Counted from the first letter of the stretch, positions 38,727 to 61,358 are shown. The stretch is 64,000 nucleotides of DNA from Trypanosoma brucei (GCA_000002445.1 CP000070.1:960001-1024000); one strand, 5' to 3'. The notes: generated from the sequence alone by a model not told the origin. Program-made: numbers and translations.

Positions 38727-41700
38727 CTATTTTCCAATATTAATTATCTTTCGCGTTAACTTATAAGGTTCTTCGCCAACGACGAAGCCACTCAACAGTT
38801 TCCTCCTTAAATAACTTAAGCGAATATTCAAAACAGCGCACTCCCTCTCAAAAACATCCAACCTCTGTTGAAGTTCATTCCGTTCAGCCTCCACAGTTTC
38901 CAGATTACGCTCCACAGCAGCTCTCGCATCCTCGGAATTACGAAGTTGCGATTTCAGATCATTGCTTGTAGCGTCCAACCTCTGTTGAAGTTCATTCCGT
39001 TCAGCCTCCACAGTTTCCAGATTACGCTCCACAGCAGCTCTCGCATCTTCGGAATTACGAAGTTGCGATTTCAGATCATTGCTTGTAGCATCCAACCTCT
39101 GTTGAAGTTCATTCCGTTCAGCCTCCACAGTTTCCAGATTACGCTCCACAGCAGCTCTCGCATCCTCGGAATTACGAAGTTGCGATTTCAGATCATTGCT
39201 TGTAGCGTCCAACCTCTGTTGAAGTTCATTCCGTTCAGCCTCCACAGTTTCCAGATTACGCTCCACAGCAGCTCTCGCATCTTCGGAATTACGAAGTTGC
39301 GATTTCAGATCATTGCTTGTAGCGTCCAACCTCTGTTGAAGTTCATTCCGTTCAGCCTCCACAGTTTCCAGATTACGCTCCACAGCAGCTCTCGCATCCT
39401 CGGAATTACGAAGTTGCGATTTCAGATCATTGCTTGTAGCGTCCAACCTCTGTTGAAGTTCATTCCGTTCAGCCTCCACAGTTTCCAGATTACGCTCCAC
39501 AGCAGCTCTCGCATCCTCGGAATTACGAAGTTGCGATTTCAGATCATTGCTTGTAGCGTCCAACCTCTGTTGAAGTTCATTCCGTTCAGCCTCCACAGTT
39601 TCCAGATTACGCTCCACAGCAGCTCTCGCATCTTCGGAATTACGAAGTTGCGATTTCAGATCATTGCTTGTAGCATCCAACCTCTGTTGAAGTTCATTCC
39701 GTTCAGCCTCCACAGTTTCCAGATTACGCTCCACAGCAGCTCTCGCATCCTCGGAATTACGAAGTTGCGATTTCAGATCATTGCTTGTAGCGTCCAACCT
39801 CTGTTGAAGTTCATTCCGTTCAGCCTCCACAGTTTCCAGATTACGCTCCACAGCAGCTCTCGCATCCTCGGAATTACGAAGTTGCGATTTCAGATCATTG
39901 CTTGTAGCATCCAACCTCTGTTGAAGTTCATTCCGTTCAGCCTCCACAGTTTCCAGATTACGCTCCACAGCAGCTCTCGCATCCTCGGAATTACGAAGTT
40001 GCGATTTCAGATCATTGCTTGTAGCGTCCAACCTCTGTTGAAGTTCATTCCGTTCAGCCTCCACAGTTTCCAGATTACGCTCCACAGCAGCTCTCGCATC
40101 CTCGGAATTACGAAGTTGCGATTTCAGATCATTGCTTGTAGCGTCCAACCTCTGTTGAAGTTCATTCCGTTCAGCCTCCACAGTTTCCAGATTACGCTCC
40201 ACAGCAGCTCTCGCATCCTCGGAATTACGAAGTTGCGATTTCAGATCATTGCTTGTAGCGTCCAACCTCTGTTGAAGTTCATTCCGTTCAGCCTCCACAG
40301 TTTCCAGATTACGCTCCACAGCAGCTCTCGCATCCTCGGAATTACGAAGTTGCGATTTCAGATCATTGCTTGTAGCATCCAACCTCTGTTGAAGTTCATT
40401 CCGTTCAGCCTCCACAGTTTCCAGATTACGCTCCACAGCAGCTCTCGCATCCTCGGAATTACGAAGTTGCGATTTCAGATCATTGCTTGTAGCGTCCAAC
40501 CTCTGTTGAAGTTCATTCCGTTCAGCCTCCACAGTTTCCAGATTACGCTCCACAGCAGCTCTCGCATCCTCGGAATTACGAAGTTGCGATTTCAGATCAT
40601 TGCTTGTAGCGTCCAACCTCTGTTGAAGTTCATTCCGTTCAGCCTCCACAGTTTCCAGATTACGCTCCACAGCAGCTCTCGCATCCTCGGAATTACGAAG
40701 TTGCGATTTCAGATCATTGCTTGTAGCGTCCAACCTCTGTTGAAGTTCATTCCGTTCAGCCTCCACAGTTTCCAGATTACGCTCCACAGCAGCTCTCGCA
40801 TCCTCGGAATTACGAAGTTGCGATTTCAGATCATTGCTTGTAGCGTCCAACCTCTGTTGAAGTTCATTCCGTTCAGCCTCCACAGTTTCCAGATTACGCT
40901 CCACAGCAGCTCTCGCATCCTCGGAATTACGAAGTTGCGATTTCAGATCATTGCTTGTAGCATCCAACCTCTGTTGAAGTTCATTCCGTTCAGCCTCCAC
41001 AGTTTCCAGATTACGCTCCACAGCAGCTCTCGCATCCTCGGAATTACGAAGTTGCGATTTCAGATCATTGCTTGTAGCGTCCAACCTCTGTTGAAGTTCA
41101 TTCCGTTCAGCCTCCACAGTTTCCAGATTACGCTCCACAGCAGCTCTCGCATCCTCGGAATTACGAAGTTGCGATTTCAGATCATTGCTTGTAGCGTCCA
41201 ACCTCTGTTGAAGTTCATTCCGTTCAGCCTCCACAGTTTCCAGATTACGCTCCACAGCAGCTCTCGCATCCTCGGAATTACGAAGTTGCGATTTCAGATC
41301 ATTGCTTGTAGCGTCCAACCTCTGTTGAAGTTCATTCCGTTCAGCCTCCACAGTTTCCAGATTACGCTCCACAGCAGCTCTCGCATCTTCGGAATTACGA
41401 AGTTGCGATTTCAGATCATTGCTTGTAGCGTCCAACCTCTGTTGAAGTTCATTCCGTTCAGCCTCCACAGTTTCCAGATTACGCTCCACAGCAGCTCTCG
41501 CATCTTCGGAATTACGAAGTTGCGATTTCAGATCATTGCTTGTAGCATCCAACCTCTGTTGAAGTTCATTCCGTTCAGCCTCCACAGTTTCCAGATTACG
41601 CTCCACAGCAGCTCTCGCATCTTCGGAATTACGAAGTTGCGATTTCAGATCATTGCTCGTAGCATCCAACCTCTGTTGAAGTTCATTCCGTTCAGCCTCC

Positions 41701-44138
41701 ACAGTTTCCAGATTACGCTCCACAGCAGCTCTCGCATCCTCGGAATTACGAAGTTGCGATTTCAGATCATTGCTCGTAGCGTCCAACCTCTGTTGAAGTT
41801 CATCCCGTTCAGCCTCCACAGTTTCCAGATTACGCTCCACAGCAGCTCTCGCATCCTCGGCTTGCCTTGCTTTGTTGGTTATTGCGGCTTCTGATTGTTT
41901 TGTGGTATCAAGTTGTTTTTTTGCTTCTTCTATTTCTTTTTCTAACATTAGAATTTTTTGTTCTAGTTTTTTTGTCATCTGGTGTTGTTCCATCTGAAAT
42001 AATTTATGATTTTTTTCCATTGCGGCTCTTTGGTCGAAATGATGCTGGTTACATTTGGTAAGTTGAGTCTCAACTTCAGTGCCCACCGCCGTTAGTAGCT
42101 CTGCCTGCCAAAGATTGTGCATGCCAATAGTTGTAAGGAGGTGATTTATTGTTTTAATGTGACGATGTTCTGTTTCTTCCAGTTTCAGGTCGAGAAACTG
42201 GGCTATCTCTTCAAGTTCATTTCTTTCAAGTCGGAATACCTCGAGGTCGCTGAGAATTCGTTGTTGTGCCTCACACTCTTCAAGCAGCTTTTGCATGCGG
42301 TGAGAAAGTTCCTCGTTCTGTTGCTGTAATTCTGTATGCTTTTCTGAGGACTGCTGTGAATTACAAAGTGCAGCGCTCAATTGCTCCTGCCTTTCACGAA
42401 GGATGTGTAGTGCTTCCTCTCGTGAATGACGCTCTTGCTCAAGTTCTGACATCACCCTGGACAATTGTTGTTGACTGCTCAACATTTCAGCATCTTTCCT
42501 CTCTCTAATCCCCTCTATCTCTGCTCTGTGTTGCCGCACCTTCTCTAAGAGCTCCTGTTCTCGCTGTGCATACTCATCTTTCAAACGCTGACTCATTTCT
42601 TCATGATATTCAGCGCGGCGTTTCGACTCTTCAACCTGCCGTTCGAGCTCAGTAGCCTTGATCAGGAGTTCCTCACGCTCCACCTCGGTTGCATACAACA
42701 TTTTCTCACGAATTATATTCTTCTCTCGTTCCTTTTCCAGTGCATGAAGGTCAGCAGCACGCTTCTGCGCTTCCGCCTCGAGAAGCACAAGCTTCTCCTC
42801 CAGCTCACGGACGTACGTGGGGTCCTTACCTTTGATGTCTTGCCGCATTTGCTCCATCTGTTCCTCAAGTTCACGAATACGACGCGCGCGGGGGTCCTCA
42901 TTGACTCTGGTCATGTTTACGATATCACGGGCACGTGATGCGTATCGTAGCGTGCTCAGAGTTTCCTCGTAGTTCAGAGCACTCGGGCTCACCGTCGCGA
43001 TCATAAAGGTCTTCGAGTTCCCACCGAGTGAATCTTTCAAAATGTATGTAAGCTTAGACTCCCGATAAGGTGGTGTCGACCATTGTGATGATTTATTCTT
43101 CGCCATATCTGCCAGCATATCGATCACGCGCCCGAGTGTTGTCAATGAGAGATTAATATATCGTGCCTCGTTAAACTGCTGCCCAACAACCTCTGATTGC
43201 GCAACGCGCTCAGATCCAGCAAGGTCCACCAAGTTCATTCGGCTACTCATCCCGGCGGTGGTGATCACTTGCCCAGATGCCGTTTGTGTAGACCGCTCCT
43301 CATGTAGTATCAACATGAAGATAGCATGGCTCCTGCTGCTGCGGTCGTTCATCTTCGTTGAGGCCGTGTGTCGCACACGATTCCCCAACTCGATCAGTTC
43401 CACAACTTCCTCCACAGACGACACCTCTTGCAGTCTCTGTCCTTCGATAAAAACACCCATCGTGGGATGTTCACGCACATCAACGAACACATCCTCCCTC
43501 GATCCCTTCCGCCGCCGAGCCAGGAGGTCAGACACACGCTCGTTATACACTTCAACATACCCAACTGTCACCTTCCACCTTGAGTGGCCCTTTCCTTCGA
43601 TTCGAGCACGCTTCTCGAATATCTCTAGGCAAAGACGCGGTATCACCCCAGCATCCACACCGGACACAGAACCCGGATCTCCTCCCATCATTGTGTACGT
43701 CTTACCACTTCCCGTTTGTCCGTAAGCAAAAAGACATGAGTTGTACCCGTTGAAGGCATGCATCACAAGTGGGCGACCAATCGCTTCATACACTTCCAGC
43801 TGCCCCGCGGGCGGGAGACCACCCTCATCGGTACAACCACAGGAACAAAAAATGTTGTCAAATTGGAATGTTTGCGCCCGTGGGCACTGACTACTTTTTG
43901 AGTGGTGATCAATCAGCGTTATGGTCGAATACGATGTATTGGCTCGGAGTGCGAGTTTGTGCGTTCCCGACATTTCTGAAGTGTTTTGCGGCCGTACTCT
44001 TACAGCTACTTTAATAGACTCATCGCACGCGTTCGTCGTCATTTCGGTTGTTGTTAATGAGTTCCTACTTTCGTCGGTCATCGTTGAGTTATTTTTTCCC
44101 GAGTTTTGTTCCCCTGCCCTCCTTATATTACTTATCAT
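38727..44138 (-). CDS. Kinesin (N-terminal motor domain) with long coiled-coil stalk and ~26 tandem 39-aa repeats (K39-antigen-like kinesin)
   Basis: Motor motifs [25 protein letters not shown] (P-loop), SSRSHAIF (switch I), LVDLAGSER (switch II). This is followed by ~400 aa of coiled coil, then the reiterated repeat NSEDARAAVERNLETVEAERNELQQRLDATSNDLKSQLR. ATG verified at 44136-44138 (an alternative ATG lies at 44081). Confidence 0.9.
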   Translation of the reverse strand: MISNIRRAGEQNSGKNNSTMTDESRNSLTTTEMTTNACDESIKVAVRVRPQNTSEMSGTHKLALRANTSYSTITLIDHHSKSSQCPRAQTFQFDNIFCSCGCTDEGGLPPAGQLEVYEAIGRPLVMHAFNGYNSCLFAYGQTGSGKTYTMMGGDPGSVSGVDAGVIPRLCLEIFEKRARIEGKGHSRWKVTVGYVEVYNERVSDLLARRRKGSREDVFVDVREHPTMGVFIEGQRLQEVSSVEEVVELIELGNRVRHTASTKMNDRSSRSHAIFMLILHEERSTQTASGQVITTAGMSSRMNLVDLAGSERVAQSEVVGQQFNEARYINLSLTTLGRVIDMLADMAKNKSSQWSTPPYRESKLTYILKDSLGGNSKTFMIATVSPSALNYEETLSTLRYASRARDIVNMTRVNEDPRARRIRELEEQMEQMRQDIKGKDPTYVRELEEKLVLLEAEAQKRAADLHALEKEREKNIIREKMLYATEVEREELLIKATELERQVEESKRRAEYHEEMSQRLKDEYAQREQELLEKVRQHRAEIEGIRERKDAEMLSSQQQLSRVMSELEQERHSREEALHILRERQEQLSAALCNSQQSSEKHTELQQQNEELSHRMQKLLEECEAQQRILSDLEVFRLERNELEEIAQFLDLKLEETEHRHIKTINHLLTTIGMHNLWQAELLTAVGTEVETQLTKCNQHHFDQRAAMEKNHKLFQMEQHQMTKKLEQKILMLEKEIEEAKKQLDTTKQSEAAITNKARQAEDARAAVERNLETVEAERDELQQRLDATSNDLKSQLRNSEDARAAVERNLETVEAERNELQQRLDATSNDLKSQLRNSEDARAAVERNLETVEAERNELQQRLDATSNDLKSQLRNSEDARAAVERNLETVEAERNELQQRLDATSNDLKSQLRNSEDARAAVERNLETVEAERNELQQRLDATSNDLKSQLRNSEDARAAVERNLETVEAERNELQQRLDATSNDLKSQLRNSEDARAAVERNLETVEAERNELQQRLDATSNDLKSQLRNSEDARAAVERNLETVEAERNELQQRLDATSNDLKSQLRNSEDARAAVERNLETVEAERNELQQRLDATSNDLKSQLRNSEDARAAVERNLETVEAERNELQQRLDATSNDLKSQLRNSEDARAAVERNLETVEAERNELQQRLDATSNDLKSQLRNSEDARAAVERNLETVEAERNELQQRLDATSNDLKSQLRNSEDARAAVERNLETVEAERNELQQRLDATSNDLKSQLRNSEDARAAVERNLETVEAERNELQQRLDATSNDLKSQLRNSEDARAAVERNLETVEAERNELQQRLDATSNDLKSQLRNSEDARAAVERNLETVEAERNELQQRLDATSNDLKSQLRNSEDARAAVERNLETVEAERNELQQRLDATSNDLKSQLRNSEDARAAVERNLETVEAERNELQQRLDATSNDLKSQLRNSEDARAAVERNLETVEAERNELQQRLDATSNDLKSQLRNSEDARAAVERNLETVEAERNELQQRLDATSNDLKSQLRNSEDARAAVERNLETVEAERNELQQRLDATSNDLKSQLRNSEDARAAVERNLETVEAERNELQQRLDATSNDLKSQLRNSEDARAAVERNLETVEAERNELQQRLDATSNDLKSQLRNSEDARAAVERNLETVEAERNELQQRLDATSNDLKSQLRNSEDARAAVERNLETVEAERNELQQRLDATSNDLKSQLRNSEDARAAVERNLETVEAERNELQQRLDVFERECAVLNIRLSYLRRKLLSGFVVGEEPYKLTRKIINIGK
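38857..41870. repeat. Tandem array of ~25.7 copies of a 117-bp unit (inside the kinesin CDS)
   Basis: Unit 'tccaacctctgttgaagttcattccgttcagcctccacagtttccagattacgctccacagcagctctcgcatcctcggaattacgaagttgcgatttcagatcattgcttgtagcg'. The period was verified at 38857, 38974 and onwards. The only variant sites are C/T in 'gcatc(c/t)tcgg', G/A in 'gtagc(g/a)tcc' and 't(t/c)gtagc'. Confidence 0.95.
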
Positions 44139-49515: not shown

Positions 49516-50286
49516 TCAAAGCTCATCAAAGTCTACTTTCGCATCCATGATGCGGATTGCCGACATCATGCCCCTCAGCAGGGATTTCGCTCTGCCGTAA
49601 AAATGTATATGAGCACTGTCATGATCTAATCCGTTATTAAACACGGGCATGACACTACCATTGTGTGGAAATAAGAAAAGGACCCTAGGATAGTACTCAC
49701 CCTGTGGTGACATAGCTTTGATCATTTCATCTTCACCTTTACCATTCTGCTTTGTTCTCCGCTTATTGCCACGTAACCGGGGGTGAATTTCACCAAACGC
49801 AGGCCGCGGATAAGGAGAACTACGCAATATTTCATCCACTGTTTCAGCGCTTACCATAGTCATGTACTCGCTCAAAAGCTCAAACTCGGGGCTCACCCCA
49901 AGTTCCTCAATTAACATACGACACGCAGGACAATTTTCCTTGTGGAAAAAAATAAACACAGGCAGGTGACAGAGCGCAATGGGTGACTGAGATCTTGATG
50001 TTGCCAACAGATGTAAGTCACGTTGGCCATCGTATGTATCATTAGCATTTACATCCCCCGAGAAACCATTTGACAACACGGTACAGCGTGCAACAGAAAC
50101 TCGGTGGACCAATTGCGGCCAGTTCACCCACGGTATGTGCCCAGTATGTCTGACTAACGTAGAACTCGTGGAGCTGGTGCCACTCCTCGTGTTTTGGGTT
50201 CCATGACCCCTATAGTTGGGTTCAAGCATTTCTCCGAAGATAGAAGACCCCCACAACATCAAGATTACTAAAAAATTAATGAGCAT
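49516..50286 (-). CDS. Secreted/ER thioredoxin-fold protein of the TXNDC12/AGR (ERp18-like) type with CPAC motif and C-terminal FDEL
   Basis: Signal-peptide-like N-terminus MLINFLVILMLWGSSIFG. Also 'FHKENCPACR' (CxxC), 'YYPRVLFLFP' (cis-Pro region) and a KDEL-like C-terminus 'KVDFDEL'. The track start at 50451 is TTG. In-frame ATGs at 50349 and 50286 were both verified; 50286 was chosen because it yields the signal peptide. Confidence 0.55.
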   Translation of the reverse strand: MLINFLVILMLWGSSIFGEMLEPNYRGHGTQNTRSGTSSTSSTLVRHTGHIPWVNWPQLVHRVSVARCTVLSNGFSGDVNANDTYDGQRDLHLLATSRSQSPIALCHLPVFIFFHKENCPACRMLIEELGVSPEFELLSEYMTMVSAETVDEILRSSPYPRPAFGEIHPRLRGNKRRTKQNGKGEDEMIKAMSPQGEYYPRVLFLFPHNGSVMPVFNNGLDHDSAHIHFYGRAKSLLRGMMSAIRIMDAKVDFDEL

Positions 50287-51320
50287 GTTCTTCAATGTAT
50301 CGGTGAAAGGGGGAAGAAAGCCTAATATACAGGTATTATATTGACGCATACAAAAATATACAACTCCTCTTTCGGTTTCTTTTAAACACAAAATTATGAA
50401 TGCACAAAATGCAAAATTGGGAAATTTCTCGGACTTAGTCAAAAACAGCAACCAGTAGGACAGAGTTTTTTTTTTATATTTCTGCCGGATAATAACAACA
50501 ATTGCTCTATAACATAGAAGGCAATTTTATATATAATATATATGTGCCACCTTTAATTATGGTGGCACAACGGAAGGACAAATTGATTCCTTCTTCAACG
50601 AGCAGCATCCACATAACTAAGAGTTAAAACACCATCGTTTGGCAATACTTCCCCTTCTTACCCACTGTCTGTCTATGTTATCGGTAGCAATCCGACGTAT
50701 ACCCAAGTCCAAAATACGAAGTTCAGCGGTATCACACTGCTACAAACAAGAAAAGTTCATGATATCATGAAGTATGCACATTACAGCAATCTCTTATTTA
50801 TTCTGTGACAAATAAAAGACGGAATAAAAAAGAAAGCAGGTCGCTAAAAAATGGAACGACTGTGAAACTCCTTCCATCCGGTGGTGAGTGCGACCGCAAA
50901 TCAAAATTGAAGAGAGGGAGGAGCCAAATAAAAGAAAGATGGGGTGGGCGCATTTGTGTCGCCGGATTGAAGGGAAAAAAAACAACCCCGGTAGCGGCTA
51001 AAAGAGATAACGTATCCTTTCCCTTGTGTGTTTCAAGTGTCCGCACTTCGTTTACTTCCACAACAGTCAAATGATATATTGGGGCACAAGCTACTCAACT
51101 GGCTACACATGTGCAGGGAAACAGCTGAAAAAAAAAATGTGTAACTCTTTGTCCCAATGCTTGTATTCCACTGACTTGTGTTCCCTCGGGGGGAGGGGGG
51201 AGGGACCATCCTTCCTAAATATCTTCTTAACCCATTATTCTCCTACACGTCGGACAACCGGGGGCGGAGATCAGTACAATGTAACAATACAAACAAATGC
51301 AATAATCGTTTGTGTGTGCT

Positions 51321-53651
51321 TCAATCAACCTGCGCCAAAAAGGGGTGAGAAAGAAGGTCCTTGCTCCGTGGACGCGCCTTGTGATCAAGAGTTAGACACG
51401 CCTCAACAAATGATATAAAGGCGCTATCAGTGACGTTATGAGCAGCCAATTTTTCCCTAAGAACTCGATACGGGCGCTCTTCAGAGATAAGACTCTCCGT
51501 ATCCCGGGTACCGTTGTTTTCCGCATCTGTACCTTCGGCATCTGGGTTCTTGATGCCCGATGACTGCGGCACTGGCGTGTACAAATAGTAATATGAAGAA
51601 TCTTCTCCGGGATCATCCCCGTCCTTATTACCTTGTTCGTAGATACAGCCAAATTTATTTATAAATTTAGAAGTATGCCGACCTTCCCACAACATCCGTC
51701 TGGGAAACGGGCGGCCGCAGACATAAACAATACGAGCAAGCATTTCCGGCACTGTCTCAGATGTGAACAATACTTCTCCTGTCACAAGCTCCGCCAAAAT
51801 TGCCCCAAGAGACCATACATCGATCCTCCCATCATAATCACATCCCAGGATAACTTCTGGAGCACGGTAACTTCTGCTTTGGATGTAAGAGCTTAAATGA
51901 TCGCTCAAAAAACAACTACTTCCAAAATCAATCACCTTTATTAAGCACCGTCTGTGGGAAACAAATAAAATATTTTCTGGCTTCAGATCCGCATGAATCA
52001 AGCTTAAACTGTGAACGTATGTTAGGGCCTCTGTGATTTGTCGTGCAATGCGGCGCAACCTTGGTATGGTAAAGTAAAATGTTTCCTCTTCCTCGCGATT
52101 ATACTTGGAATATTCGTAAAGGTTATCCGATAGCAATTCCGTCACCAACATCGTATGTTCCTTGTAGTAAAAGCTGTCAATCAACCGAATGACATGGGCT
52201 TTATCAGGATCCTTGTATTTGTTTATTAGCGTCAGCAAGCGTATTTCATCCAGCGACTGATCAAAAAAGTCCTTGGAGTTGTTGATTATTTTGAGGCAAA
52301 CTTCGACATAACCAACAACTTTCCTTTTCTTTGCATCGTTTGAAACACCACCATTCTCGGTATCGACACACCGGTTTTGCGCATCTGTGGTTGCGGTCCT
52401 ATCCTTATCCTCTACTTTGACGTCATCCTCATATATGGGTTGAGAAAGGTCATAGCATCGCACCGCACGGCTAAATGTTGCTTTCCCCAACATCTCCACT
52501 ATCTGGTAACGGTCAGCCACAATTGTACCGCGTTCAATCGGAAATGTCTTCTCCTCTTCAAATCCAGTTTTTATGGGATCCATGATTACACGAAGGTTGA
52601 AACTCCCCATGGTCACAGGTGCCTTGCCTTCCTTAGCCAAACGTCGAAATTCTTGTCTTCTTTCCTCCCTAGCTCGAACAGCATCAAACATCACTCCTCG
52701 CTCCAGTTCCACTACAAACTCAAAGGGTGATACTGGTTTGAAGCGCGAACGTTCAGCATCCGTCGTTGCGCACTCATCGTATTTGTATCCGACAAAGTCT
52801 TTAACGGTGACGTGCGCTGGTCTTTTAGACGATGAAAGTCCACCACGACGAATTGTCTCCGAAAATGTTTTGCTCAAGAAACGAGCCTGACCCTCAGTAA
52901 TTCCGCCACCAAATGGAAATGAAGGAACACGGTATACTTTTTTCGTACCAACAACTGCTGCATCATCCATGTAATCACTTTCTTTGTCCTCATCTTTATC
53001 CTCGCTACTATCCTCAACAGCTTCCCCCGTTTCGGAGTGAAGAAGCAGTGGTTCAGGCTGCCAGGTACAGCCACTTATGTCCTGATAAAGTGCGGGGTCC
53101 ACAGCCTTAAAAACAACTTGAGTTTTGACACCGTCGTAGACATTATCATCAGAATCAGCCGAAAAGTCTGCTCCCATCGTACAAGCGCTGAATAACTGCG
53201 CCTTCGAATTAGGATAGAATCCACCTAAATCATGGCCGTCTTCACCACAGGCTTCCGGAGAACAAGAAGTTACCTCCGCTTCCGTATCATCTAATTCGCT
53301 TTCGCAAAACTCGGCAGCGTCACCTGAAACCTTTTTTGCGTAGCAGTTACCGGGTTTCGCATTGTTTGCAGTAGCCCCACCACTAATTCCACCTCCTCGC
53401 GTTACGGGGAACTCGCAAATTACATCATTGTGGCCCTGAGTCCTTTGTTGCCTCGCAGGGTGTTTGGTCAGTGGCGCTGTTGACTCCAGGACACTTAAAA
53501 GAGCATCATACGACTTACAACTTTCCACGTTACGGGACCTTCGACGGATAGCTTCAGTGGATTCCAACATCGACTTTGCGAGCGCCTTTATTTCTTCAAT
53601 TATGGTGTCGGTTGATGCACCACATCTCTTCAACCCATCAGCGGGTTCCAT
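51321..53651 (-). CDS. DYRK-family dual-specificity protein kinase with long N-terminal extension
   Basis: C-terminal kinase domain: HADLKPENIL (catalytic loop), VIDFGSS (DFG), activation loop 'SSYIQSRSYRAPEVILG' (DYRK YxY-type), DVWSLGAILAEL. ATG verified at 53649-53651. Confidence 0.85.
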   Translation of the reverse strand: MEPADGLKRCGASTDTIIEEIKALAKSMLESTEAIRRRSRNVESCKSYDALLSVLESTAPLTKHPARQQRTQGHNDVICEFPVTRGGGISGGATANNAKPGNCYAKKVSGDAAEFCESELDDTEAEVTSCSPEACGEDGHDLGGFYPNSKAQLFSACTMGADFSADSDDNVYDGVKTQVVFKAVDPALYQDISGCTWQPEPLLLHSETGEAVEDSSEDKDEDKESDYMDDAAVVGTKKVYRVPSFPFGGGITEGQARFLSKTFSETIRRGGLSSSKRPAHVTVKDFVGYKYDECATTDAERSRFKPVSPFEFVVELERGVMFDAVRAREERRQEFRRLAKEGKAPVTMGSFNLRVIMDPIKTGFEEEKTFPIERGTIVADRYQIVEMLGKATFSRAVRCYDLSQPIYEDDVKVEDKDRTATTDAQNRCVDTENGGVSNDAKKRKVVGYVEVCLKIINNSKDFFDQSLDEIRLLTLINKYKDPDKAHVIRLIDSFYYKEHTMLVTELLSDNLYEYSKYNREEEETFYFTIPRLRRIARQITEALTYVHSLSLIHADLKPENILFVSHRRCLIKVIDFGSSCFLSDHLSSYIQSRSYRAPEVILGCDYDGRIDVWSLGAILAELVTGEVLFTSETVPEMLARIVYVCGRPFPRRMLWEGRHTSKFINKFGCIYEQGNKDGDDPGEDSSYYYLYTPVPQSSGIKNPDAEGTDAENNGTRDTESLISEERPYRVLREKLAAHNVTDSAFISFVEACLTLDHKARPRSKDLLSHPFLAQVD

Positions 53652-56600
53652 GGCACTTATATATATACGTCCGAATATATATATATTAGAAATATATACA
53701 GCCCGCTTGTTTGCTTCCTTACTGCTACTACTACCTTTAAAGTATAAATCACTTTAACCACGAGTACCGGCGTGGGGAATTTCAAAAAGGTAAGGGTCAA
53801 TATTTCACGAAACGAACCAAATACGGAGAGGAAAAAGAAAAAAGAAAAAGTTGCTCCCCTTCTTACGTCCCCCTTTTTTTGAGGCACAATCTCCCAGTCA
53901 ACCTATAAAATAGGAAGCCAAGCGGATGACAAAAAGATGCTCCTCAATTCAGAATTTCGTTATATCATACATAATACGACACTTTAAAAAACGGTATCCA
54001 TATGCAGCGAGTCTCAGGCACGCAGAGAAAAAACGGATATAACGATTGTAGTCACCAATAAGACCAACATCAAATATATATATATATATAACTTGCACGG
54101 AACCTTACCGGTAGATTCGCTAGAAGTAGGAAAAACAGAAGTTAGTGTTCATTTTTTAAAAAAGGGCATCCAAGCACATGTACAAGATGTGGTTTAAAAA
54201 ACACATACACACAACTAGGCAAGAAAACGAACAGAAAATCGCGATGAGTGGAGCCATTTACGCTTTGTGGATGTTTACGGGAAGCTGCCCAGCAGTAGCC
54301 GGTAAATAACAATGTCACGTCTATGACTCCTCAGAAGTAGAATTTCAGGGATGAGCACAAGTCAGAAGAATGCGGTGACAGACGAAAACCAGGAGAGTCA
54401 ACAGTAGCCTCGCAAGCCCCATAACCACTCGTAAACCAAATTGACCCCCCCCCCCCCCGAAGACAAGCAACGAGACAGACATAACCCCACAGCACTACAG
54501 GAGACTGGAATACAAGTTGCCGACGCGGAGCCTTACCGGGAGTTACCTTGGGCCGATGTCGACACATTCGGCACCTCCGTGTGCGGACGTGGCGCCACAA
54601 CTGCTCCTTAGTAACACCGAAAAAAAGCGGAGCTTTTGCAGGCTCCCCAAAGTCCAAAACTGTAAACGATTCCTTCATTCCTAGACGTTCTGAAAGATCC
54701 TTTGTGGGCGCCAACGAGCCACTCCTTAGCAAAGCAACGGCAACAACCAAAAGCTGCATAAGCGACACGGGTCCGATCGAACGAAGAAAAACCAAGCCTT
54801 AGTGCACGACGTTCCCAAATTTGCCGCCTGCAGAGAATCGAAGGGCAGCTTTTGTTCGTGTGTCGATGTTTTTGATTTTGTCTTTGTTGAAGCGCAAGCG
54901 CTGAATGGCAGAACAGAATCAACAAAGGAAATGGAAAAGATGCCCCACCAGAGGAAACTCGCCTGACGCGACGGCGCCCACCGGCCACACGCAATTTCAA
55001 CCACAACATCGCCGACGCCAGCTTAGCCGTCCATCGCAGCAGCACCACTAACGCGCACGCAGGTGGATACGACCTCACGTGAATAAAACGGCATCAGTGA
55101 CGTAGCACTTGTGCATCCGTAAAACTACCGCTGGTGCGCGCTATGCGACACAACGTTCTGAAGGAGCAAAAACCCACCCAAAGACACGCATCACCTTCAA
55201 CTGCCAGAATCATACACTCAGCGAACACAATAGTCAACCCCAATCCCCGCGGTTGCTCCACTTCCTCACCGAATGGGGATTATTTTTTCGAACCTCGCTT
55301 GGAGATGACCCATTGGGGAATCAGGGAGATGTTTAACGGTGTCTACCCACCTCTTAATCAAACAGTGAGGCACATCACTGGCAGATCCAACCAACCATAA
55401 GCGTCAGACGGCAAAACACGTCACTTACTGACCGCACACCTTTCTGTAGGTTCCGCGTTTCTGCGCTTTCCAAGCGAATACCGGCCACCAGAAAAGAGAA
55501 GGCGCCCCATCATGATGCATTGCCGCGTCTGAGCCTACGAAACTGATCGTGCAAAGCGCAATCCTCATTAGGTGGAAGGATTGTAGCAGCAGACGATCCC
55601 GTTGTGGACGAAAGCATTCCTCCGGCAAATGAAAACTCCCCAAGGGATACAAAGCGCTTTTGCTGGCACCGACGACTGCAGCCGGCCGCTTCCCACTTTA
55701 TTTTGCAGCGACCTCAGACACTCACTTTCCTGTTCGACTGGAAGAAGTTGGGAGGGCATTGTAATCATGAAGGCGGTTGCACGATACGTTGAAGGGGCTC
55801 CCCACGGTTTCGAATCGTCGGTTGTTTATCATACGCATGGACGCACACTCCCTTAGGCGGCAAACGGAAACCAGAGTGTCCTACGGAAGGGTAGAGTTTC
55901 CTCAAAAAAAAAAAAGAACGCAACATCGGAAGCGTATCTGCTATTCTCGATGCAATAAAATGATTAGCTCGTGCGCATTTTCACTTCGGAAAGAAACATG
56001 CACTACGAGAACCCCACTGCTGCGTCTGCCAGTTCACGTTGAAAACAAATTTACGCCATTTTTCCGCAGGTGGGAGACCTTCTAGGAACCTTTCTTCGCT
56101 TCTGCCTTTCTAACGGTGACCACGCCTTGCATATTAACGCGTCCCTTTTGTTCACTTCCGGTGCCCCCCCCCACGGTGGAACTATTGCTGCTTTCAAAGA
56201 ATTCAATGACACATACAGAATCTTAGTACCCACGGGTTGCTCACGGTGATGACTGTTACGCTGATACTAACCAACACCTACTCACATGGTCCCTTTGTTT
56301 CGGCCTCGTAAGCAGCCGCAGGGCGCGAACGAGCAATTATATACAAAAAAGTAAGGCACCTACGTCTGAACATTTGTTTTACCTAGAGCGGAAAAAAGAT
56401 AGGGTGTGTCCTCCCCGATCTTCTTGAGGGAGAGTTTGGCCAACCTCGTAGGGAAGTTTTCCCCGCCCATGTCGAATGCCCTATCGAGGCGGTAGGATAC
56501 ACCGCCGCCAGGACGAACCCAGACACCCGCACGCGTCCTGGTCTTCGGGGATTGGGAAGGGCTGACAACTTTGTGAAAGGGATAAAAGGTAACTTTATCG

Positions 56601-59310
56601 TTTCCCCGTGTGAAAAAGAGTATTCGTACGCTCATTGGGGGGCTCAAACGCGCCTCCTTTAGTGTATTCAAACTGTTGCTGATTTTGAGTTCGAGGATTC
56701 TTATCACAGCATAGGTCTGATTTTACGTGGAATGCGACTGAATACCGGGTGGCTCCCCCTACCGAATACAAGCACGTTGGCAAAGTGCCTTTGAGAAACG
56801 AAGGGTGAGCTCTGGACTTCGCAGAAAATGGATATGCACAATGAAGGGGCACAACGCATAGTGATTCCTTGACGACATAACACCGGAGTGGCACAACCTT
56901 TTTAGTGTTCACGAGTGTCGACACTGTAAGGGGGTGGTTTTTGCGTAAGGTTCACGAAAAACAGGAGTGTGGAAAGGCATCAGTTGAGCCAACAGTTGAA
57001 TAGATGTTGAAACTCTTACTTATCCCAACACATTTACCATAACCAGCTACGGCCACGACGCCAGCACTGGAAGCAACACGTTCACCCGAAGGCATGCAGG
57101 TACCGGGTGCGCATATGAATTCGCGCTGCCGGCCACGACATCCAACCACACAGCTGGACATTGTACGAGTGAGTATTGTACAGTGGTACTCGGCAGAGAA
57201 CATGAGAATAACTAATGCAGGGGAAGGCGCGAGGAGGTTTTAAGAGCGAAAATGGTTGTCACCTCTGGACATAACAGTCCGCGGTGATTGTGAGTCCTCA
57301 AACTGAAGACCGGAACTGAGGTCAACCAACGATCGTCGCTGGACCACATTCGGGTTCAACACCATTCTTGATGCTGAAAGGGCTCATTTTCTTTTTACTG
57401 TTGTGGGGTATGCTTTCGATGGAAGATAAAGGGGGCGCTAAAAGAGTTTAGCAGCGCACATACGCACAAAGAAACGGAATAGTTAAGTGGAAGTGCCACG
57501 TATCAAACACAAAGTACTTAAAGTGTCTACGCGCGAAGCGCGCGAAACAATGAAAGTTAAGAAAAATTGTGCAGCCAGTATCGCATAGTTGAGATTTAGT
57601 CCTGATTATTGTGTTTTGAATCCGTGTCCCTCCTGGTGGGATCCCTTTCCACCTCCAGATTAAGGTGGTCAACGAGTATCGGTTCGTCGTTCAACATTAC
57701 GCTCGTCCCCCTTTTTTTTCCTTTTATGCTTCCTCACCGGCGTTCCATCCTTATGAGTTGGCAATAAAGTCGCTGCGGGGTTGGGTGGGTTCCCACTCCC
57801 AACAAGTATCTGCGCCACCTCCCGGTTTGGCTAAAACTTTCGATATAACGGCTCCGGCTGACGCAAATATTCGTCTCGTCCTGTTTAGATTCACGTATAC
57901 ATGAGGAGAAGGGTGCAACTTTTCAGCCAAATTTTACATTCTTCAGTTTAAAAAGTTTTGCGTGGAAAGTGCGTTGTCCGCTGCCGAAATGACGGCACCT
58001 TTCAAACAACGTGCTCTACCCCATATTGCCCCCGTGATGCCTTTAGAGGTTGACGGTGCAGTAAATCCAACAAAAAGTCGCCGCACTCTGCCTTTTAGAG
58101 TGTTGCATTCCTTTTCTATTTTGTGTTGTCCCCTGTGCCACATATCTTTGGTTAGAGCGCTTTGTTCCACGCGTTTTGCTTCACAGTGCGGTCGTTGGAG
58201 AGTCCTTTTGAGTCCGCTATATTACCAGGAACGTGCCGTCACTCATATCCCCCTTTATTGCACCTTTCGCCTTTGGGTGTGTATCCCCACTGCATTGAAA
58301 GAGCCATAGCATACCGTCATACTGCACGCCACGCCGTCCGGCCACATGTCGGGCGGAGGCCGCGCCGCTATAGAATGGAGGGAAATATACCTGCACACTG
58401 TCCTTCAACAACCAAGATCGTGTGGCGCAATGTCGTGTCGAACACACCGGGAAGCACAAAAAAAAAACTCCTATAAGTTGGGCGCCGACGCCCCGGCATC
58501 CCCGTTCAATGATAAGTGACCCTTTGCGGCGGTGTTGATAGTTACCTCGCGTCTTTTTTTTTTTTAATTCACGGATAGGGAAAGCCCACAAATAGCGGGG
58601 CACTGTTTTGTACGCGCGTGCAGCCGTACCGCTCTAGGTTGGAGCCATTTCCTTCGCGCTTGGACGCCGGCTTTCACCTTTTCTTTACCCTGCCGCACAT
58701 ACCCAACGTGCCGTTACCAGCGCGGTGCACTGCGACGTGCTGATGAAGATTTTGCTGTTCTCTGCGGTGACACCAGGTGGTCGCACCGGTTTTTTGTGAC
58801 TCATGGCAAAGCAATGTAAAAATATCGAAAAAAAAGGGTAAATACTCCGATTTCCCCTGTGCGCAATTGGTTTCGGCGCTGCTCGCAGCCGACGCCAACA
58901 AACGGTCACCATGCTCAGTGTTCTGCAGTCCCCGCAGTTTTAGCGCAACATGTCCTGCATCAAGTCGTGTTAATCATGCGACGGCCTCGTCCTGTAGGCC
59001 TTGCGCCTCTGCCGGTTGGTCACACTGCGTGGGTTGAAGCTGTGGCTACCTAATCGCTGCGAACTTTAAAATGTCAGAAACCTTCCAGGGAACCTTGTTG
59101 AGTGAGCCGGCCTCGCCGTTTTAAGATTTATTAGTCCCGTGCGCCGGAGTTTGTGCACACCCTAGGGGCTGAATGCGTTTGCTTTTTTTTTTTCTTCATG
59201 TCATTGATGCTTTTATTCAAGGCTCGAGTGAGAACGGTGGGTAACTACTGCATTAGAAGATCATCTAAAGAGTGTTCAGAGTGTTTTGCTTTTGAACAAC
59301 ATGGGTTATC
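53652..59310. promoter_or_regulatory. Divergent strand-switch region between a leftward (minus) and a rightward (plus) gene array; candidate RNA pol II transcription start region
   Basis: All CDSs from 1 to 53651 are on the minus strand; the CDSs from 59311 onward are on the plus strand. The intervening 5.7 kb has no ORF above ~150 aa on any frame yet is mostly non-repetitive. It contains a C14 tract (54445-54458), a C9 tract (56164-56172) and a perfect 8-bp hairpin (56499-56532). Confidence 0.6.
54445..54458 (-). promoter_or_regulatory. Homopolymer C14 (G14 on the minus/leftward coding strand) inside the strand-switch region
   Basis: Read directly from the sequence: 'ttgacccccccccccccccgaag'. 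Confidence 0.5.
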
Positions 59311-60231
59311 ATGGCATTTTTACTTTCAGCATGGTTGCCCACTTTTAGGACCTATTTTTCCCTGTTTTCCACGATAGTGTGGCAAGTGATGGAGGGTATG
59401 CTTCTGGATGCTGTTAGTAAAAGTATGGTGGCAGAAGGCGCGAAGTTGGTACCGAAATATGGAGTCCGCAATTCTGCACTCATGTCCTTGTCAGTGAATG
59501 CGTTGAAAGGCAATCCCACATATGACAAGGCGCGGACGCTGGGCAACAGAGAGTTATCTCGTCTGTTTCCGAGGGGATTTTCGATCGCTGTGGTTGAGCA
59601 CATCGTTGCAAGCAGCAACCAAACCGCTCATTTGAGACTTGAGGAGTGCTTTAGTAAATATGCTATTCTCTCCACGGTTGCGAAGAACAGTGATACATAC
59701 CAACTAGGATGCTATAAACCTCCGGGCGTGCGTGAGGTTGTTAGCGAGGCTATGGACTCAAAGTTCAGTGCTCTGCTACCTTATTGCGAACACTGGGCGG
59801 AGGCGGTTGCGCTGGAGTGCTTGCCTTCTAATACTCCGTTTGCCGCCAAGCTGGCTCTGGAATTTATTGATACTACCTGTTACTATGCGGAGCGGATGAG
59901 AAGTTTAGGGTCAGTCGTAGAAGCAGGCAATATACTACTACAGTCTCGTATTTCTGATCCCTTTGCCGCTGAGCCGCATTCGATCGGTGTGTCAGGGGGT
60001 GTAAAAAAAGGTGAAAAGAACGATGCGTTCTGGCAGAAATTTGCCACTACTGTACCTTTGTCCAGTGGACCGCATGCTAGTCACGGTATGCTTGGATATG
60101 AGTGGTATATACTGCGTATGAAGGTTGGTGCGATACTGAGCTTGGGCATGCTCTCTTTTATGGGTGAAAAATCGCGTTCTCGTTTGGAGACTAAGTCGAT
60201 GGTGCGGTCGATAATTTGTGGAATACTGTGA
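59311..60231 (+). CDS. COQ9: Ubiquinone biosynthesis protein COQ9 homologue
   Basis: 'SKFSALLPYCEHWAEAVALECLPSNTPFAAKLALEFIDTTCYYAE' aligns with the human COQ9 block '[43 protein letters not shown]'. 'GYEWYILRMKVGAILSLGML' aligns with '[21 protein letters not shown]'. ATG verified at 59311 (an alternative in-frame ATG lies at 59389, MEGML...). Confidence 0.7.
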   Translation: MAFLLSAWLPTFRTYFSLFSTIVWQVMEGMLLDAVSKSMVAEGAKLVPKYGVRNSALMSLSVNALKGNPTYDKARTLGNRELSRLFPRGFSIAVVEHIVASSNQTAHLRLEECFSKYAILSTVAKNSDTYQLGCYKPPGVREVVSEAMDSKFSALLPYCEHWAEAVALECLPSNTPFAAKLALEFIDTTCYYAERMRSLGSVVEAGNILLQSRISDPFAAEPHSIGVSGGVKKGEKNDAFWQKFATTVPLSSGPHASHGMLGYEWYILRMKVGAILSLGMLSFMGEKSRSRLETKSMVRSIICGIL

Positions 60232-61358
60232 AGGATTAAGAGGGAACAGCACGTTGGCAGGCATTTTTGTTATTTACTAAGTTGTGGATGCGCTAGGAGC
60301 TTGTCGATTGGTTTTACTACTAATGAAAAGATGACTTTCCTGTTGTTCTTTGTTTTGATGCGATGTGGCAATAAATATGGTGCTCCGCGGACATTCGTAT
60401 AGCATCCTGCTGGCACTTTCCCTTCCTATTTCACATACACGTATACATTATTTACGCGTCATGCAGTTGCACATTTCTCTCTATAGGAGACCCAGGTATA
60501 GAGCGTGTCATCCATGGCTTGTGAGGATACGAAAGCTCGTGCAACCGCCGATCATTCGTTTCTATCGCAGAGTATCTCTTACGTACTGCTCGCGAAGTTA
60601 CTCACAGATTAAAGGGACTGTCATCTCAGCAGATTCAGTGGGGAGCCCTGTTATCAGTATTATATTTGTTGGTTTTCTTTTACTAATAAAACCACAGTGT
60701 GTGTACGTATGTTTGGGTGCCCGAAAGGCCAAGGTGGGGGCTTGTTTGTTTGAAGGCTTGTAGGCTTCCCCAATTGGACCCATTTCTCAAATCCGCACTA
60801 CTACTACGATATTGCATTCACTGTTGCGACAGTGTCTTTTGTTAAATGGTTTGCCTTCGCTGGTTGTTGTACTAGAAAAAAATGGACGGACCTACTTAAA
60901 AAACTGTGCACTGTCAGGTAATGTTGTTATATTCGATATTTCGTACCAGGCTTCGTGCTGTATCTACCTCCATCCATATACGGTCCTCGCTTCAAGCCGG
61001 GTTGGTACATATTATCCTATTGAACTGCCACTTCACTCTCCAGTTTTACCTTTCAGACCGGTATTGCTTTATGTGTGTTTTTCTACAGCGAACGCTGTAC
61101 AACCTAGTGTTAATTAGGAGGAATTAGTTATTGCATAGTTGTTTACTGGTTGTGTTTGGAATTTTGTGTTTCATCTGCCCTTTGTTTGTTTGAATTTTAT
61201 TGAAGATTCACATAAATCTATGTATATATGTATTTGTGCGCTTTTTGTCCCCTTTGAGCGACCAACTCACGGTTTCCTGTAATCATCAGTAGCCCTGCAC
61301 TACGTGTATATTCGTTTGCTCTTCATTTTTTCTTTTGCTTTTCTTTAGAAGCACCAAT

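What the first reader, a model, noticed from the sequence alone, without database searches (positions are those of the whole stretch)
53652..59310. Divergent strand-switch region with homopolymer C14/G14 and a 4 kb complex-sequence but ORF-less segment
Gene orientation flips here (minus-strand array to the left, plus-strand array to the right), the configuration of pol II transcription start regions in trypanosomatids. A C14 run at 54445-54458 equals G14 on the coding strand of the leftward unit. G-tracts oriented this way have been described at Leishmania and T. brucei start regions. Unlike the other intergenic DNA in the window, 55.0-59.3 kb is not low-complexity (GC-balanced, few microsatellites) yet has no ORF above ~130 aa in six frames. 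That is the profile of a decayed pseudogene, unannotated ncRNA genes, or promoter-associated sequence. A perfect 8-bp stem with an 18-nt loop lies at 56499-56532 ('ccaggacg...cgtcctgg').
Basis: partly seen in the sequence, partly recalled or inferred. Interest (0 to 1): 0.55.

Follow-up and report, generated by a model that had tools for sequence, protein, structure and literature searches.

The report
Known trypanosome divergent transcription start region
This is the gap on Trypanosoma brucei chromosome 7 where two long gene arrays are transcribed away from each other; it was already catalogued as a divergent RNA polymerase II start site in 2010, and the 4 kb stretch without genes shows no sign of a hidden gene, pseudogene or structured RNA.

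Summary
The window is T. brucei TREU927 chromosome 7, v4 positions 960,001-1,024,000. The finding is the gap between Tb927.7.3880 (DYRK kinase, minus strand) and Tb927.7.3890 (COQ9 homologue, plus strand). Kolev et al. 2010 (Table S14) already list these two genes as the first genes of two 'Divergent' Pol II transcription units. They also list a low-abundance transcript, Tb7.NT.39, at window 58302-59200 (+).

The strand switch, the C14 run and the GC-balanced ORF-less segment are all real. The hairpin is real but lies at 56508-56541, 9 nt from the stated position, and is no more than chance gives. G-runs on the coding strand occur across the whole minus-strand array, not only here.

The gap splits into three parts:
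- A flank that is GT-rich on the minus strand (53.75-55.5 kb, containing the G14).
- A core with no strand skew (about 55.5-57.6 kb).
- A flank that becomes T/GT-rich on the plus strand.

The core has no tRNA, Rfam, Pfam or PDB match. It shows no coding signal and no excess RNA structure, and its ORF lengths match shuffled sequence. It diverges between strains at the ordinary intergenic rate and shares nothing with T. congolense.

The same gap is 0.57 kb in T. cruzi, 1.0 kb in T. theileri and more than 8.7 kb in T. congolense. Verdict: ordinary and already known.

The parts
51321..53651 (-). CDS of Tb927.7.3880 (DYRK-family protein kinase), first gene of the leftward transcription unit
   Evidence: Pkinase domain, E 6e-43. 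Exact match to AAZ12452 of T. brucei TREU927. First ORF of the 'Divergent' minus-strand unit in Kolev Table S14. Gene identity from PMC5522463.
53752..53850 (-). Predicted trans-splicing signal of the kinase mRNA: polypyrimidine tract at 53825-53850 and the first downstream AG at 53753-53752, on the minus strand
   Evidence: Read directly from the minus strand. This is inferred, because the published splice-site tables were truncated in the copy held.
53750..55500 (-). Flank that is GT-rich on the minus (coding) strand, with G+T 0.55-0.61 per 500-bp window; inferred dispersed promoter and start region of the leftward unit
   Evidence: Skew profile. All 13 GT-only runs of at least 9 nt between 53469 and 56929 lie on the minus strand. 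GT-rich coding-strand elements drive directional initiation in T. brucei (PMC5579346).
54445..54458 (-). C14 on the plus strand, which is G14 on the coding strand of the leftward unit; 794 nt upstream of the kinase ATG
   Evidence: It is C15 in T. b. gambiense and unresolved (N) in T. equiperdum. No G or C run of at least 7 (T. cruzi, T. theileri) or at least 8 (T. congolense) occurs in the homologous gaps.
54398..55078 (-). Spurious ORF. In T. b. gambiense it is annotated as a 203-aa hypothetical protein (CBH12506). In TREU927 a 1-nt A-run indel at 54787 splits it into ORFs 54608..55078 and 54331..54795, and it reads through the G-run
   Evidence: Between strains it shows 6 non-synonymous and 1 synonymous difference, against 1 and 6 in the kinase. 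No Pfam match.
55501..57600 (.). Core with no strand skew, GC-balanced and ORF-less; inferred spacer between the two divergent start regions, containing the point where strand asymmetry flips
   Evidence: Cumulative (G+T)-(A+C) is flat from 55.5 to 59.0 kb. Its minimum for the whole window is at 57566, on a plateau from 56347 to 57663. No tRNA, Rfam, Pfam or PDB hits. Dicodon score is -0.118, the intergenic level. Fold z-scores are unremarkable. Divergence from T. b. gambiense is 0.97%, against 1.05% for intergenic and 0.39% for coding sequence.
56508..56541 (.). Perfect 8-bp inverted repeat with an 18-nt loop (ccaggacg...cgtcctgg), at chance level
   Evidence: Its window does not stand out in the fold z-scores. 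One strain difference (C/T at 56524) lies in the loop.
57600..59329 (+). Flank that becomes T/GT-rich on the plus strand; inferred dispersed promoter and start region of the rightward unit
   Evidence: Plus-strand GT-only runs begin at 56930 and become regular from 57399. AT skew turns negative from about 57.5 kb. Initiation must lie upstream of the splice acceptor at 58300-58301.
58302..59200 (+). Tb7.NT.39, a published novel transcript of 898 nt at 0.63 RNA per cell in procyclic forms, with no assigned function
   Evidence: Kolev Table S7 gives 1018302-1019200 (+). An AG at 58300-58301 follows a pyrimidine-rich stretch. Dicodon score is -0.113.
59330..60231 (+). Tb927.7.3890 (COQ9 homologue) mRNA 5' end and CDS, first gene of the rightward unit. 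The spliced 5' end is at 59330 and the likely true start codon at 59389
   Evidence: Kolev Table S1 places the transcript 5' end at 1019330, inside the annotated ORF 1019311-1020231. Orthologues align only from residue 27. First ORF of the 'Divergent' plus-strand unit. COQ9 identity from PMC11349236.

Best explanation
The interval is a canonical divergent strand-switch region of T. brucei: two back-to-back, dispersed RNA polymerase II transcription start regions.

Pol II starts leftward within the flank that is GT-rich on the minus strand (about 53.75-55.5 kb, possibly up to about 56.3 kb; it contains the G14). It then transcribes Tb927.7.3880 through Tb927.7.3490. Pol II starts rightward within the stretch that turns T/GT-rich on the plus strand (from about 57 kb). 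That unit yields first the trans-spliced low-abundance RNA Tb7.NT.39 (58302-59200) and then Tb927.7.3890 through Tb927.7.4240.

The 2-3 kb between the two flanks is a non-coding spacer. It is part of no mature mRNA, so it carries neither the polypyrimidine and UTR signals nor the transcription-linked strand skew that make ordinary intergenic DNA look low-complexity. That is why it looks complex but holds no ORF. It contains no gene, pseudogene or structured RNA that these tools can detect.

Shown here:
- the divergent orientation of the two arrays;
- the published classification as a divergent start site;
- the skew architecture;
- the absence of coding or RNA-family signal.

Inferred:
- the exact initiation zones;
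- that the core has no sequence-specific function.
For: - Organism and locus are identified exactly.
- Kolev Table S14 types both flanking units as 'Divergent'.
- The kinase/COQ9 head-to-head arrangement is conserved in T. equiperdum, T. b. gambiense, T. theileri and T. cruzi.
- The strand asymmetry of the whole 64 kb window flips inside the gap. The cumulative GT-excess minimum is at 57566 and GT-only runs change strand at about 56.3-56.9 kb. This matches the published GT-rich, strand-biased promoters (PMC5579346).
- The Tb7.NT.39 5' end follows an AG at 58300-58301.
- The core has no tRNA or Rfam hit and no six-frame Pfam hit at E<=1. There is no PDB hit among stop-to-stop ORFs of at least 47 aa.
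- Its dicodon score is at the intergenic level and its maximum ORF equals that of shuffles.
- Fold z-scores average +0.10, with fewer low outliers than a control region.
- Divergence from T. b. gambiense is 0.97%, against 1.05% intergenic and 0.39% coding.
- It shares nothing with the T. congolense gap except a (TA)n microsatellite.
- T. congolense shows the same layout: a flank of about 2 kb, GT-rich on the kinase coding strand, next to a skew-neutral ORF-less core of about 5 kb with GC 0.49.
Against: - No chromatin or nascent-RNA data could be inspected at base resolution, so the initiation zones are inferred from skew and one splice site.
- The broad protein-database search for pseudogene remnants failed its positive control and is uninformative.
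- The T. brucei genome could not be searched for other copies of the core.
- The gap is 5-15 times longer than in T. cruzi or T. theileri. The source of the extra DNA is unexplained.
- T. brucei and T. congolense intergenic DNA may be too diverged for the lack of similarity to exclude short functional elements.
Confidence: 0.82

Rival explanations
1. The core is the fully decayed remnant of an inserted gene or an ingi/RIME/DIRE-type retroposon. The insertion widened an ancestrally short gap of about 0.6-1 kb. This concerns origin only and is compatible with the region now acting as a start region.
For: - The same gap is 567 bp in T. cruzi and about 1.0 kb in T. theileri, against 5.7 kb in T. 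brucei and more than 8.7 kb in T. congolense. About 5 kb of extra DNA therefore needs a source.
- Retroposons are reported to accumulate at strand-switch regions (PMC4748587).
- The core has coding-like GC content and complexity.
Against: - No reverse-transcriptase, endonuclease or any other Pfam domain appears in six frames at E<=1.
- There is no PDB match.
- There is no residual dicodon signal, and ORF lengths match shuffles.
- No match to the 5' end of the Pr77 retroposon hallmark lies in the gap (a weak test using 15 nt of the T. cruzi sequence).
- There is no repeat elsewhere in the window.
Confidence: 0.15
2. The core encodes one or more unannotated non-coding RNAs with a function, such as lncRNAs or unspliced promoter-associated RNAs.
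For: - Tb7.NT.39 lies at the right edge.
- Kolev et al. describe polyadenylated transcripts under-represented in the SL-enriched libraries, plus antisense 5'-triphosphate reads, at divergent start sites.
- More than 1,400 lncRNAs are reported in T. brucei (PMC9200285).
- Possible polypyrimidine-plus-AG sites exist inside the core, for example T12 on the minus strand at 55904-55915.
Against: - No tRNA or Rfam family was found even at E<=10.
- There is no excess of stable structure.
- Divergence is at the intergenic rate.
- Nothing is conserved with T. congolense.
- Kolev's novel-transcript table has no entry between 1,013,652 and 1,018,301 on chr7.
Confidence: 0.12
3. The wide spacer serves another chromosomal function tied to strand-switch regions, such as ORC1/CDC6 binding and replication initiation, or insulation between the two start regions. 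On this view its length, not its sequence, is under selection in African trypanosomes.
For: - The abstract of PMC3607257 reports genome-wide mapping of replication-initiator binding sites and an extensive functional interaction between replication initiation and transcription. That ORC1/CDC6 sites concentrate at transcription-unit boundaries is from my own knowledge, not read here.
- T. brucei and T. congolense both have a multi-kb skew-neutral core of unrelated sequence, whereas T. cruzi and T. theileri do not.
Against: - Nothing in the sequence points to it.
- The supplementary tables held for that paper do not mention this locus.
- Only one locus was compared, and the T. congolense contig does not reach the partner gene.
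Confidence: 0.1
4. The minus-strand ORF at 54398-55078, annotated in T. b. gambiense as hypothetical protein TbgDal_VII4340, is a real gene that is frameshifted or mis-sequenced in TREU927.
For: - It is a continuous 203-aa ORF in T. b. gambiense, and a related 188-aa ORF occurs in another assembly.
- The highest dicodon score in the gap (0.147) lies in its frame.
Against: - Between strains it shows 6 non-synonymous and 1 synonymous difference, against 1 and 6 for the neighbouring kinase.
- Its reading frame depends on two homopolymer lengths.
- It has no Pfam match.
- Nothing similar (nucleotide or translated) and no ORF above 115 aa is found upstream of the T. congolense kinase, and the whole gap in T. 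cruzi and T. theileri is only 0.57-1.0 kb.
Confidence: 0.03

Closest known systems
Divergent strand-switch regions / twin transcription start regions of T. brucei (Siegel 2009; Kolev 2010, PMC2936537; Wedel 2017, PMC5579346)
   Same: - Two polycistronic units are arranged head to head.
- This very locus is listed as 'Divergent' in Kolev Table S14.
- Both flanks are GT-rich on their coding strand, and a G-run lies on the coding strand.
- The two start regions are separated by a stretch without genes. Wedel et al. describe such a non-transcribed stretch between divergent units.
   Different: Nothing substantive. Histone-variant marks and precise start sites could not be viewed here.
G-tract-associated initiation regions of Leishmania major (PMC2679053)
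   Same: A long G-tract lies on the sense strand upstream of the first gene of a unit.
   Different: - The authors themselves find such tracts throughout the genome and absent from almost half of the predicted initiation sites.
- Here, G-runs of 8-10 also occur at four other places in the minus-strand array, three of them in gaps between genes.
- In Leishmania the kinase orthologue is not at a strand switch at all; a same-strand dynein gene lies upstream.
Compact divergent gaps at the orthologous locus in T. cruzi and T. theileri
   Same: The flanking genes and their orientation are the same. An A-rich left half and a T-rich right half surround a GC-rich centre.
   Different: These gaps are only 567 bp and about 1.0 kb. 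The centre is a GC-rich island of 200-300 bp (GC 0.67-0.70) rather than a 2-3 kb core with GC 0.49. They have no long G or C homopolymer.

Membership tests
T. brucei divergent Pol II transcription start region (dSSR/TSR) | Two polycistronic gene arrays oriented away from each other | tested here: met
   ORF map with Pfam and orthologue support. The arrangement is conserved in four other Trypanosoma assemblies.
T. brucei divergent Pol II transcription start region (dSSR/TSR) | Experimental evidence of initiation (5'-triphosphate RNA) in both directions | tested here: met
   Checked by look-up, not by new data. Kolev 2010 Table S14 lists Tb927.7.3880->3490 (-) and Tb927.7.3890->4240 (+) as 'Divergent'. 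The coordinate mapping was verified.
T. brucei divergent Pol II transcription start region (dSSR/TSR) | GT-rich strand bias on the coding strand at the 5' end of each unit | tested here: met
   Minus-strand G+T is 0.55-0.61 per 500-bp window over 53.75-55.5 kb. Plus-strand G+T rises to 0.55-0.60 from 58.75 kb. GT-only runs switch strand at 56.3-56.9 kb.
T. brucei divergent Pol II transcription start region (dSSR/TSR) | Enrichment of H2A.Z/H2B.V, H4K10ac and related marks in twin peaks | not testable with these tools
   No ChIP-seq tracks are available here. The expectation comes from PMC5579346 and PMC12227686.
T. brucei divergent Pol II transcription start region (dSSR/TSR) | Sequence-specific core promoter elements (Cordon-Obras et al. 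2022) | not tested
   The paper is not held, so the motifs were unavailable.
ingi/RIME/DIRE/SIDER retroposon remnant | Reverse-transcriptase or endonuclease coding remnants | tested here: not met
   Six-frame translation of 53652-59310 against Pfam gave 0 families at E<=1. PDB phmmer gave 0 hits.
ingi/RIME/DIRE/SIDER retroposon remnant | Pr77 hallmark at the 5' end | tested here: inconclusive
   The 15-nt 5' Pr77 sequence of T. cruzi L1Tc, with up to 3 mismatches, has no hit in the gap. The T. brucei consensus was not available, so the test is weak.
ingi/RIME/DIRE/SIDER retroposon remnant | Multiple related copies in the genome | not testable with these tools
   No searchable T. brucei genome was available. 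There is no second copy within the 64 kb window.
Structured ncRNA gene (tRNA, snRNA, snoRNA and similar) | Match to a known RNA family or a tRNA fold | tested here: not met
   ARAGORN found 0 genes. Rfam found 0 matches at gathering score. At E<=10 the only matches are two chance-level hits at 53690-53863.
Structured ncRNA gene (tRNA, snRNA, snoRNA and similar) | Thermodynamic stability above shuffles, and conservation in a sister species | tested here: not met
   Mean z is +0.10, and 2.1% of windows fall below -2 against 4.9% in the control. No similarity to the T. congolense gap exceeds randomised controls except (TA)n.
Protein-coding gene or recent pseudogene | Long ORF, coding statistics, purifying selection or homology | tested here: not met
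   Maximum ORF equals that of shuffles. Dicodon score is at the intergenic level. The gambiense ORF shows 6 non-synonymous to 1 synonymous difference. No Pfam or PDB hit. The broad protein-database search is uninformative.

The most novel reading that the evidence does not exclude
The multi-kb, skew-neutral, GC-balanced core is not mere filler. On this reading it is a spacer specific to African trypanosomes whose length, rather than sequence, is maintained. T. brucei and T. congolense both have one, of unrelated sequence, whereas T. cruzi and T. theileri have only 0.6-1 kb at the same locus. Possible roles are keeping the two divergent H2A.Z start domains apart, or hosting replication-initiator binding or unspliced promoter-associated RNAs.
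Probability: 0.1. Interest if true: 0.4.

Novelty: already known. Interest (0 to 1): 0.12.

Why it matters
Little is new. The locus is a textbook example of how trypanosomes start polycistronic transcription, and it was catalogued in 2010.

The useful by-products are small:
- A clean sequence-level dissection of one divergent start region into two GT-skewed flanks and a skew-neutral spacer.
- Independent support that the Tb927.7.3890 start codon is mis-annotated.
- Evidence that the T. b. gambiense 'gene' TbgDal_VII4340 is spurious.
- The observation that this gap is 5-15 times wider in two African trypanosomes than in T. cruzi or T. theileri. That would matter only if it held genome-wide.

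Tried and rejected
- **tRNA and RNA families.** ARAGORN and Rfam, at both gathering and E<=10 thresholds, found nothing in the core. They also found nothing in the T. congolense locus.
- **Pfam.** The search was redone with X-masked six-frame translations and gave 0 hits.
- **Large protein database.** A 4,956-aa concatenation of all open stretches of at least 47 aa returned nothing. That result is uninformative for two reasons:
  - The two T. b. gambiense ORFs from this very region are in the database.
  - Local phmmer with the same query finds them at E 1e-60 to 1e-103, so the word-index step must have missed them.
- **PDB.** phmmer with the same query found no hits.
- **Sister-species comparison.** blastn and tblastx against the T. 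congolense, T. cruzi, T. theileri, T. vivax and T. grayi loci found nothing but a (TA)n microsatellite.
- **Pr77.** The 5' 15-mer scan found nothing in the gap.
- **CpG.** The observed/expected ratio is unremarkable, 1.00 in the core.
- **Literature.**
  - Cordon-Obras 2022 and Siegel 2009 are not held.
  - The lncRNA papers have no usable supplementary coordinates.
  - The replication-origin paper's supplements do not mention the locus.
- **T. congolense COQ9.** Its contig is not on record, so the full length of that gap is unknown.

Full report
**Identity of the locus**

Three ORFs of the window are exact matches to proteins of Trypanosoma brucei brucei TREU927 on a 2,205,233-bp contig, which is chromosome 7. 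Supplementary tables of Kolev et al. 2010 (PMC2936537) give Tb927.7.3890 as ORF 1,019,311-1,020,231, which is window 59311-60231. Tb927.7.3870 ends at 1,009,516, which is window 49516. The Tb927.7.3880 poly(A) sites lie 200 and 597 nt below the kinase stop codon. The window is therefore Tb927_07_v4 960,001-1,024,000.

The flanking genes are:
- Tb927.7.3880, a DYRK kinase.
- Tb927.7.3890, a COQ9 orthologue.
- Tb927.7.3900, VTC1.

**Check of the observation**

- All long ORFs with Pfam or orthologue support up to 53651 are on the minus strand. Those from 59311 onward are on the plus strand.
- The C14 is at 54445-54458.
- Within 55.0-59.3 kb the longest ORF is 128 aa from start to stop and 138 aa from stop to stop.
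- The core 55501-58300 has GC 0.49 and 1.7% low-complexity bases. That resembles coding sequence. Most other intergenic DNA has 1.8-10.5% and GC 0.34-0.475; one 503-bp stretch is the exception, at 0% and GC 0.515.
- The hairpin sequence is right, but it lies at 56508-56541, 9 nt from the stated position. It is not above chance. Outside a (TA)n tract there are two independent perfect inverted repeats of at least 8 bp, and shuffles give 3.2 +/- 2.2.
- The absence of long ORFs is also what chance gives. The maximum ORF in shuffles is 155 +/- 27 aa.
- G-runs on the coding strand are a property of the whole minus-strand array. All six C-runs of at least 7 are on the plus strand, including three C10 runs far from the switch.

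**What is already known about this locus**

Kolev et al. list Tb927.7.3880->Tb927.7.3490 (-) and Tb927.7.3890->Tb927.7.4240 (+) as 'Divergent' putative Pol II transcription units (Table S14). The list rests on RNA-seq enriched for 5'-triphosphate ends.

Their Table S7 lists a novel transcript, Tb7.NT.39, at 1,018,302-1,019,200 (+). That is window 58302-59200, 898 nt, at 0.63 RNA per cell. Its 5' end follows an AG at 58300-58301, so plus-strand initiation must lie upstream of about 58.25 kb.

Their Table S1 places the spliced 5' end of Tb927.7.3890 at 1,019,330, inside the annotated ORF. Orthologues from five other trypanosome species align only from residue 27. The true start codon is therefore probably 59389.

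**Anatomy of the gap**

The skew profiles divide the gap into three parts.

1. From 53.75 to 55.5 kb the minus strand has 55-61% G+T per 500-bp window. Every GT-only run of at least 9 nt between 53469 and 56929 is on the minus strand. The G14 lies here.
2. From about 55.5 to 57.6 kb the skew is neutral. The cumulative (G+T)-(A+C) curve of the whole 64-kb window reaches its minimum at 57566, on a plateau from 56347 to 57663.
3. Plus-strand GT-only runs begin at 56930. AT skew turns T-rich from about 57.5 kb, and G+T reaches 0.55-0.60 from 58.75 kb.

This is the architecture described for T. brucei by Wedel et al. 2017. They report broad start regions, initiation at the 5' end of each H2A.Z domain, and G- and T-rich 10-mers enriched on the coding strand that drive directional initiation. 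They also describe a non-transcribed stretch between divergent units.

**Tests for something hidden in the ORF-less core**

- There are no tRNAs.
- There is no Rfam family at gathering score. At E<=10 nothing falls within 55-59.3 kb.
- Six-frame translations have no Pfam match at E<=1.
- Open stretches of at least 47 aa have no PDB match.
- A dicodon model trained on the window's own genes scores the core at -0.118. Intergenic stretches range from -0.21 to +0.07 and held-out genes score +0.07 to +0.24.
- RNA folding z-scores over 188 windows average +0.10. Only 2.1% fall below -2, against 4.9% in a control region.
- Between TREU927 and T. b. gambiense the core differs at 0.97% of sites. Intergenic DNA differs at 1.05% and coding sequence at 0.39%.

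T. b. gambiense annotates two ORFs in the gap. One is flagged 'hypothetical protein, unlikely'. The other, TbgDal_VII4340, is a fusion of two TREU927 ORFs through a 1-nt A-run indel, and it reads through the G-run. It shows 6 non-synonymous and 1 synonymous difference, where the neighbouring kinase shows 1 and 6. It is not under purifying selection.

**Comparative picture**

The kinase/COQ9 head-to-head arrangement is conserved. The gap is 567 bp in T. cruzi, about 1.0 kb in T. theileri and 5.66 kb in the T. brucei group. In T. congolense it exceeds 8.68 kb, because the contig ends before the partner gene is reached.

T. congolense shows the same layout:
- About 2 kb that is GT-rich on the kinase's coding strand.
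- About 5 kb that is skew-neutral and ORF-less, with GC 0.49.
- An opposite skew at the far end.

It shares no sequence with T. brucei beyond a (TA)n microsatellite. The short gaps of T. cruzi and T. theileri have an A-rich half, a GC-rich centre of 200-300 bp and a T-rich half, with no long G or C run. The G14 is thus specific to the T. brucei lineage. It varies in length (C15 in T. b. gambiense), which argues against an indispensable role. The Leishmania literature likewise finds G-tracts associated with initiation regions but neither necessary nor specific.

**Interpretation**

The interval is an ordinary, previously catalogued divergent start region. The complex but ORF-less look of the core is best explained by what it lacks. 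It is not part of any mature mRNA, so it carries no polypyrimidine or UTR signals. It also has no dominant direction of transcription, so it has no strand skew.

The origin of the extra kilobases relative to T. cruzi and T. theileri is unresolved. A decayed insertion is possible but left no detectable trace. Two tests could not be run. The broad protein search failed its positive control, and no T. brucei genome was available for a DNA search. A role of the spacer in replication-initiator binding or in separating the two chromatin domains cannot be excluded, but nothing found here points to it.

Noticed in passing
window 59311-59389: The annotated start codon of Tb927.7.3890 (COQ9 homologue) at 59311 is probably wrong. 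The published spliced 5' end is at 59330 (Kolev Table S1), and orthologues from five other trypanosome species align only from residue 27. That points to the ATG at 59389. A 5-codon upstream ORF starts at 59331.
   Followed up: yes
window 54398-55078 (-); L009 5088-5699: T. b. gambiense 'hypothetical protein TbgDal_VII4340' (CBH12506, 203 aa) is a homopolymer-dependent ORF that runs through the G-run. It shows 6 non-synonymous to 1 synonymous difference from TREU927 and is very likely spurious. TREU927 has one extra A at 54787 relative to both T. b. gambiense and T. equiperdum.
   Followed up: yes
window 60467-61219 (+): A second published novel transcript, Tb7.NT.40 (752 nt, 1.67 RNA per cell), lies between COQ9 and VTC1. 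T. b. gambiense annotates a 128-aa ORF partly overlapping it (L009 11067-11453, about window 60377-60763).
   Followed up: no
window 8000-16288: This stretch is AT-rich (GC 0.28-0.40) and full of homopolymers, with no convincing ORF. At least 12309-16288 is the 3,980-nt 3' UTR that Kolev Table S13 assigns to Tb927.7.3730, whose CDS is 16289-17311 on the minus strand.
   Followed up: partly
window 38727-44138 (-) and 38868-41894 (+): An 1803-aa minus-strand ORF is overlapped by a 1008-aa ORF on the opposite strand, in a region of strong GC and AT skew. This suggests a compositionally biased or repetitive gene.
   Followed up: no
window 49516-50349 (-), Tb927.7.3870: All six point differences between TREU927 and T. 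b. gambiense in this CDS are non-synonymous (0 synonymous). The neighbouring kinase shows 1 non-synonymous and 6 synonymous. The numbers are small but unusual.
   Followed up: no
L001 (T. equiperdum), L005 (T. vivax), L002/L007 (T. grayi): Assemblies break or carry N-gaps in this gap. T. equiperdum has Ns at the C14 and beside the A12 and A10 runs. The T. vivax and T. grayi contigs end inside the strand-switch region.
   Followed up: partly
window 54074-54090; L006 8116-8135; L003 about 9160-9177: A (TA)n microsatellite lies 0.2-0.55 kb upstream of the kinase start codon in T. brucei, T. congolense and T. theileri. It is the only 'similarity' between the gaps and may be coincidence.
   Followed up: no
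L008 (Leishmania infantum) 1-13117: In Leishmania the kinase orthologue is preceded by a same-strand dynein heavy chain gene, so this strand switch is specific to Trypanosoma. COQ9 orthologues of T. grayi and T. theileri (about 280 aa) carry the evidently wrong name 'putative dynein heavy chain'.
   Followed up: no
window 59232-59351 (+): This window has the lowest folding z-score in the scan (-3.09). It spans the COQ9 splice acceptor and 5' end. It is not significant after correcting for 188 windows.
   Followed up: no
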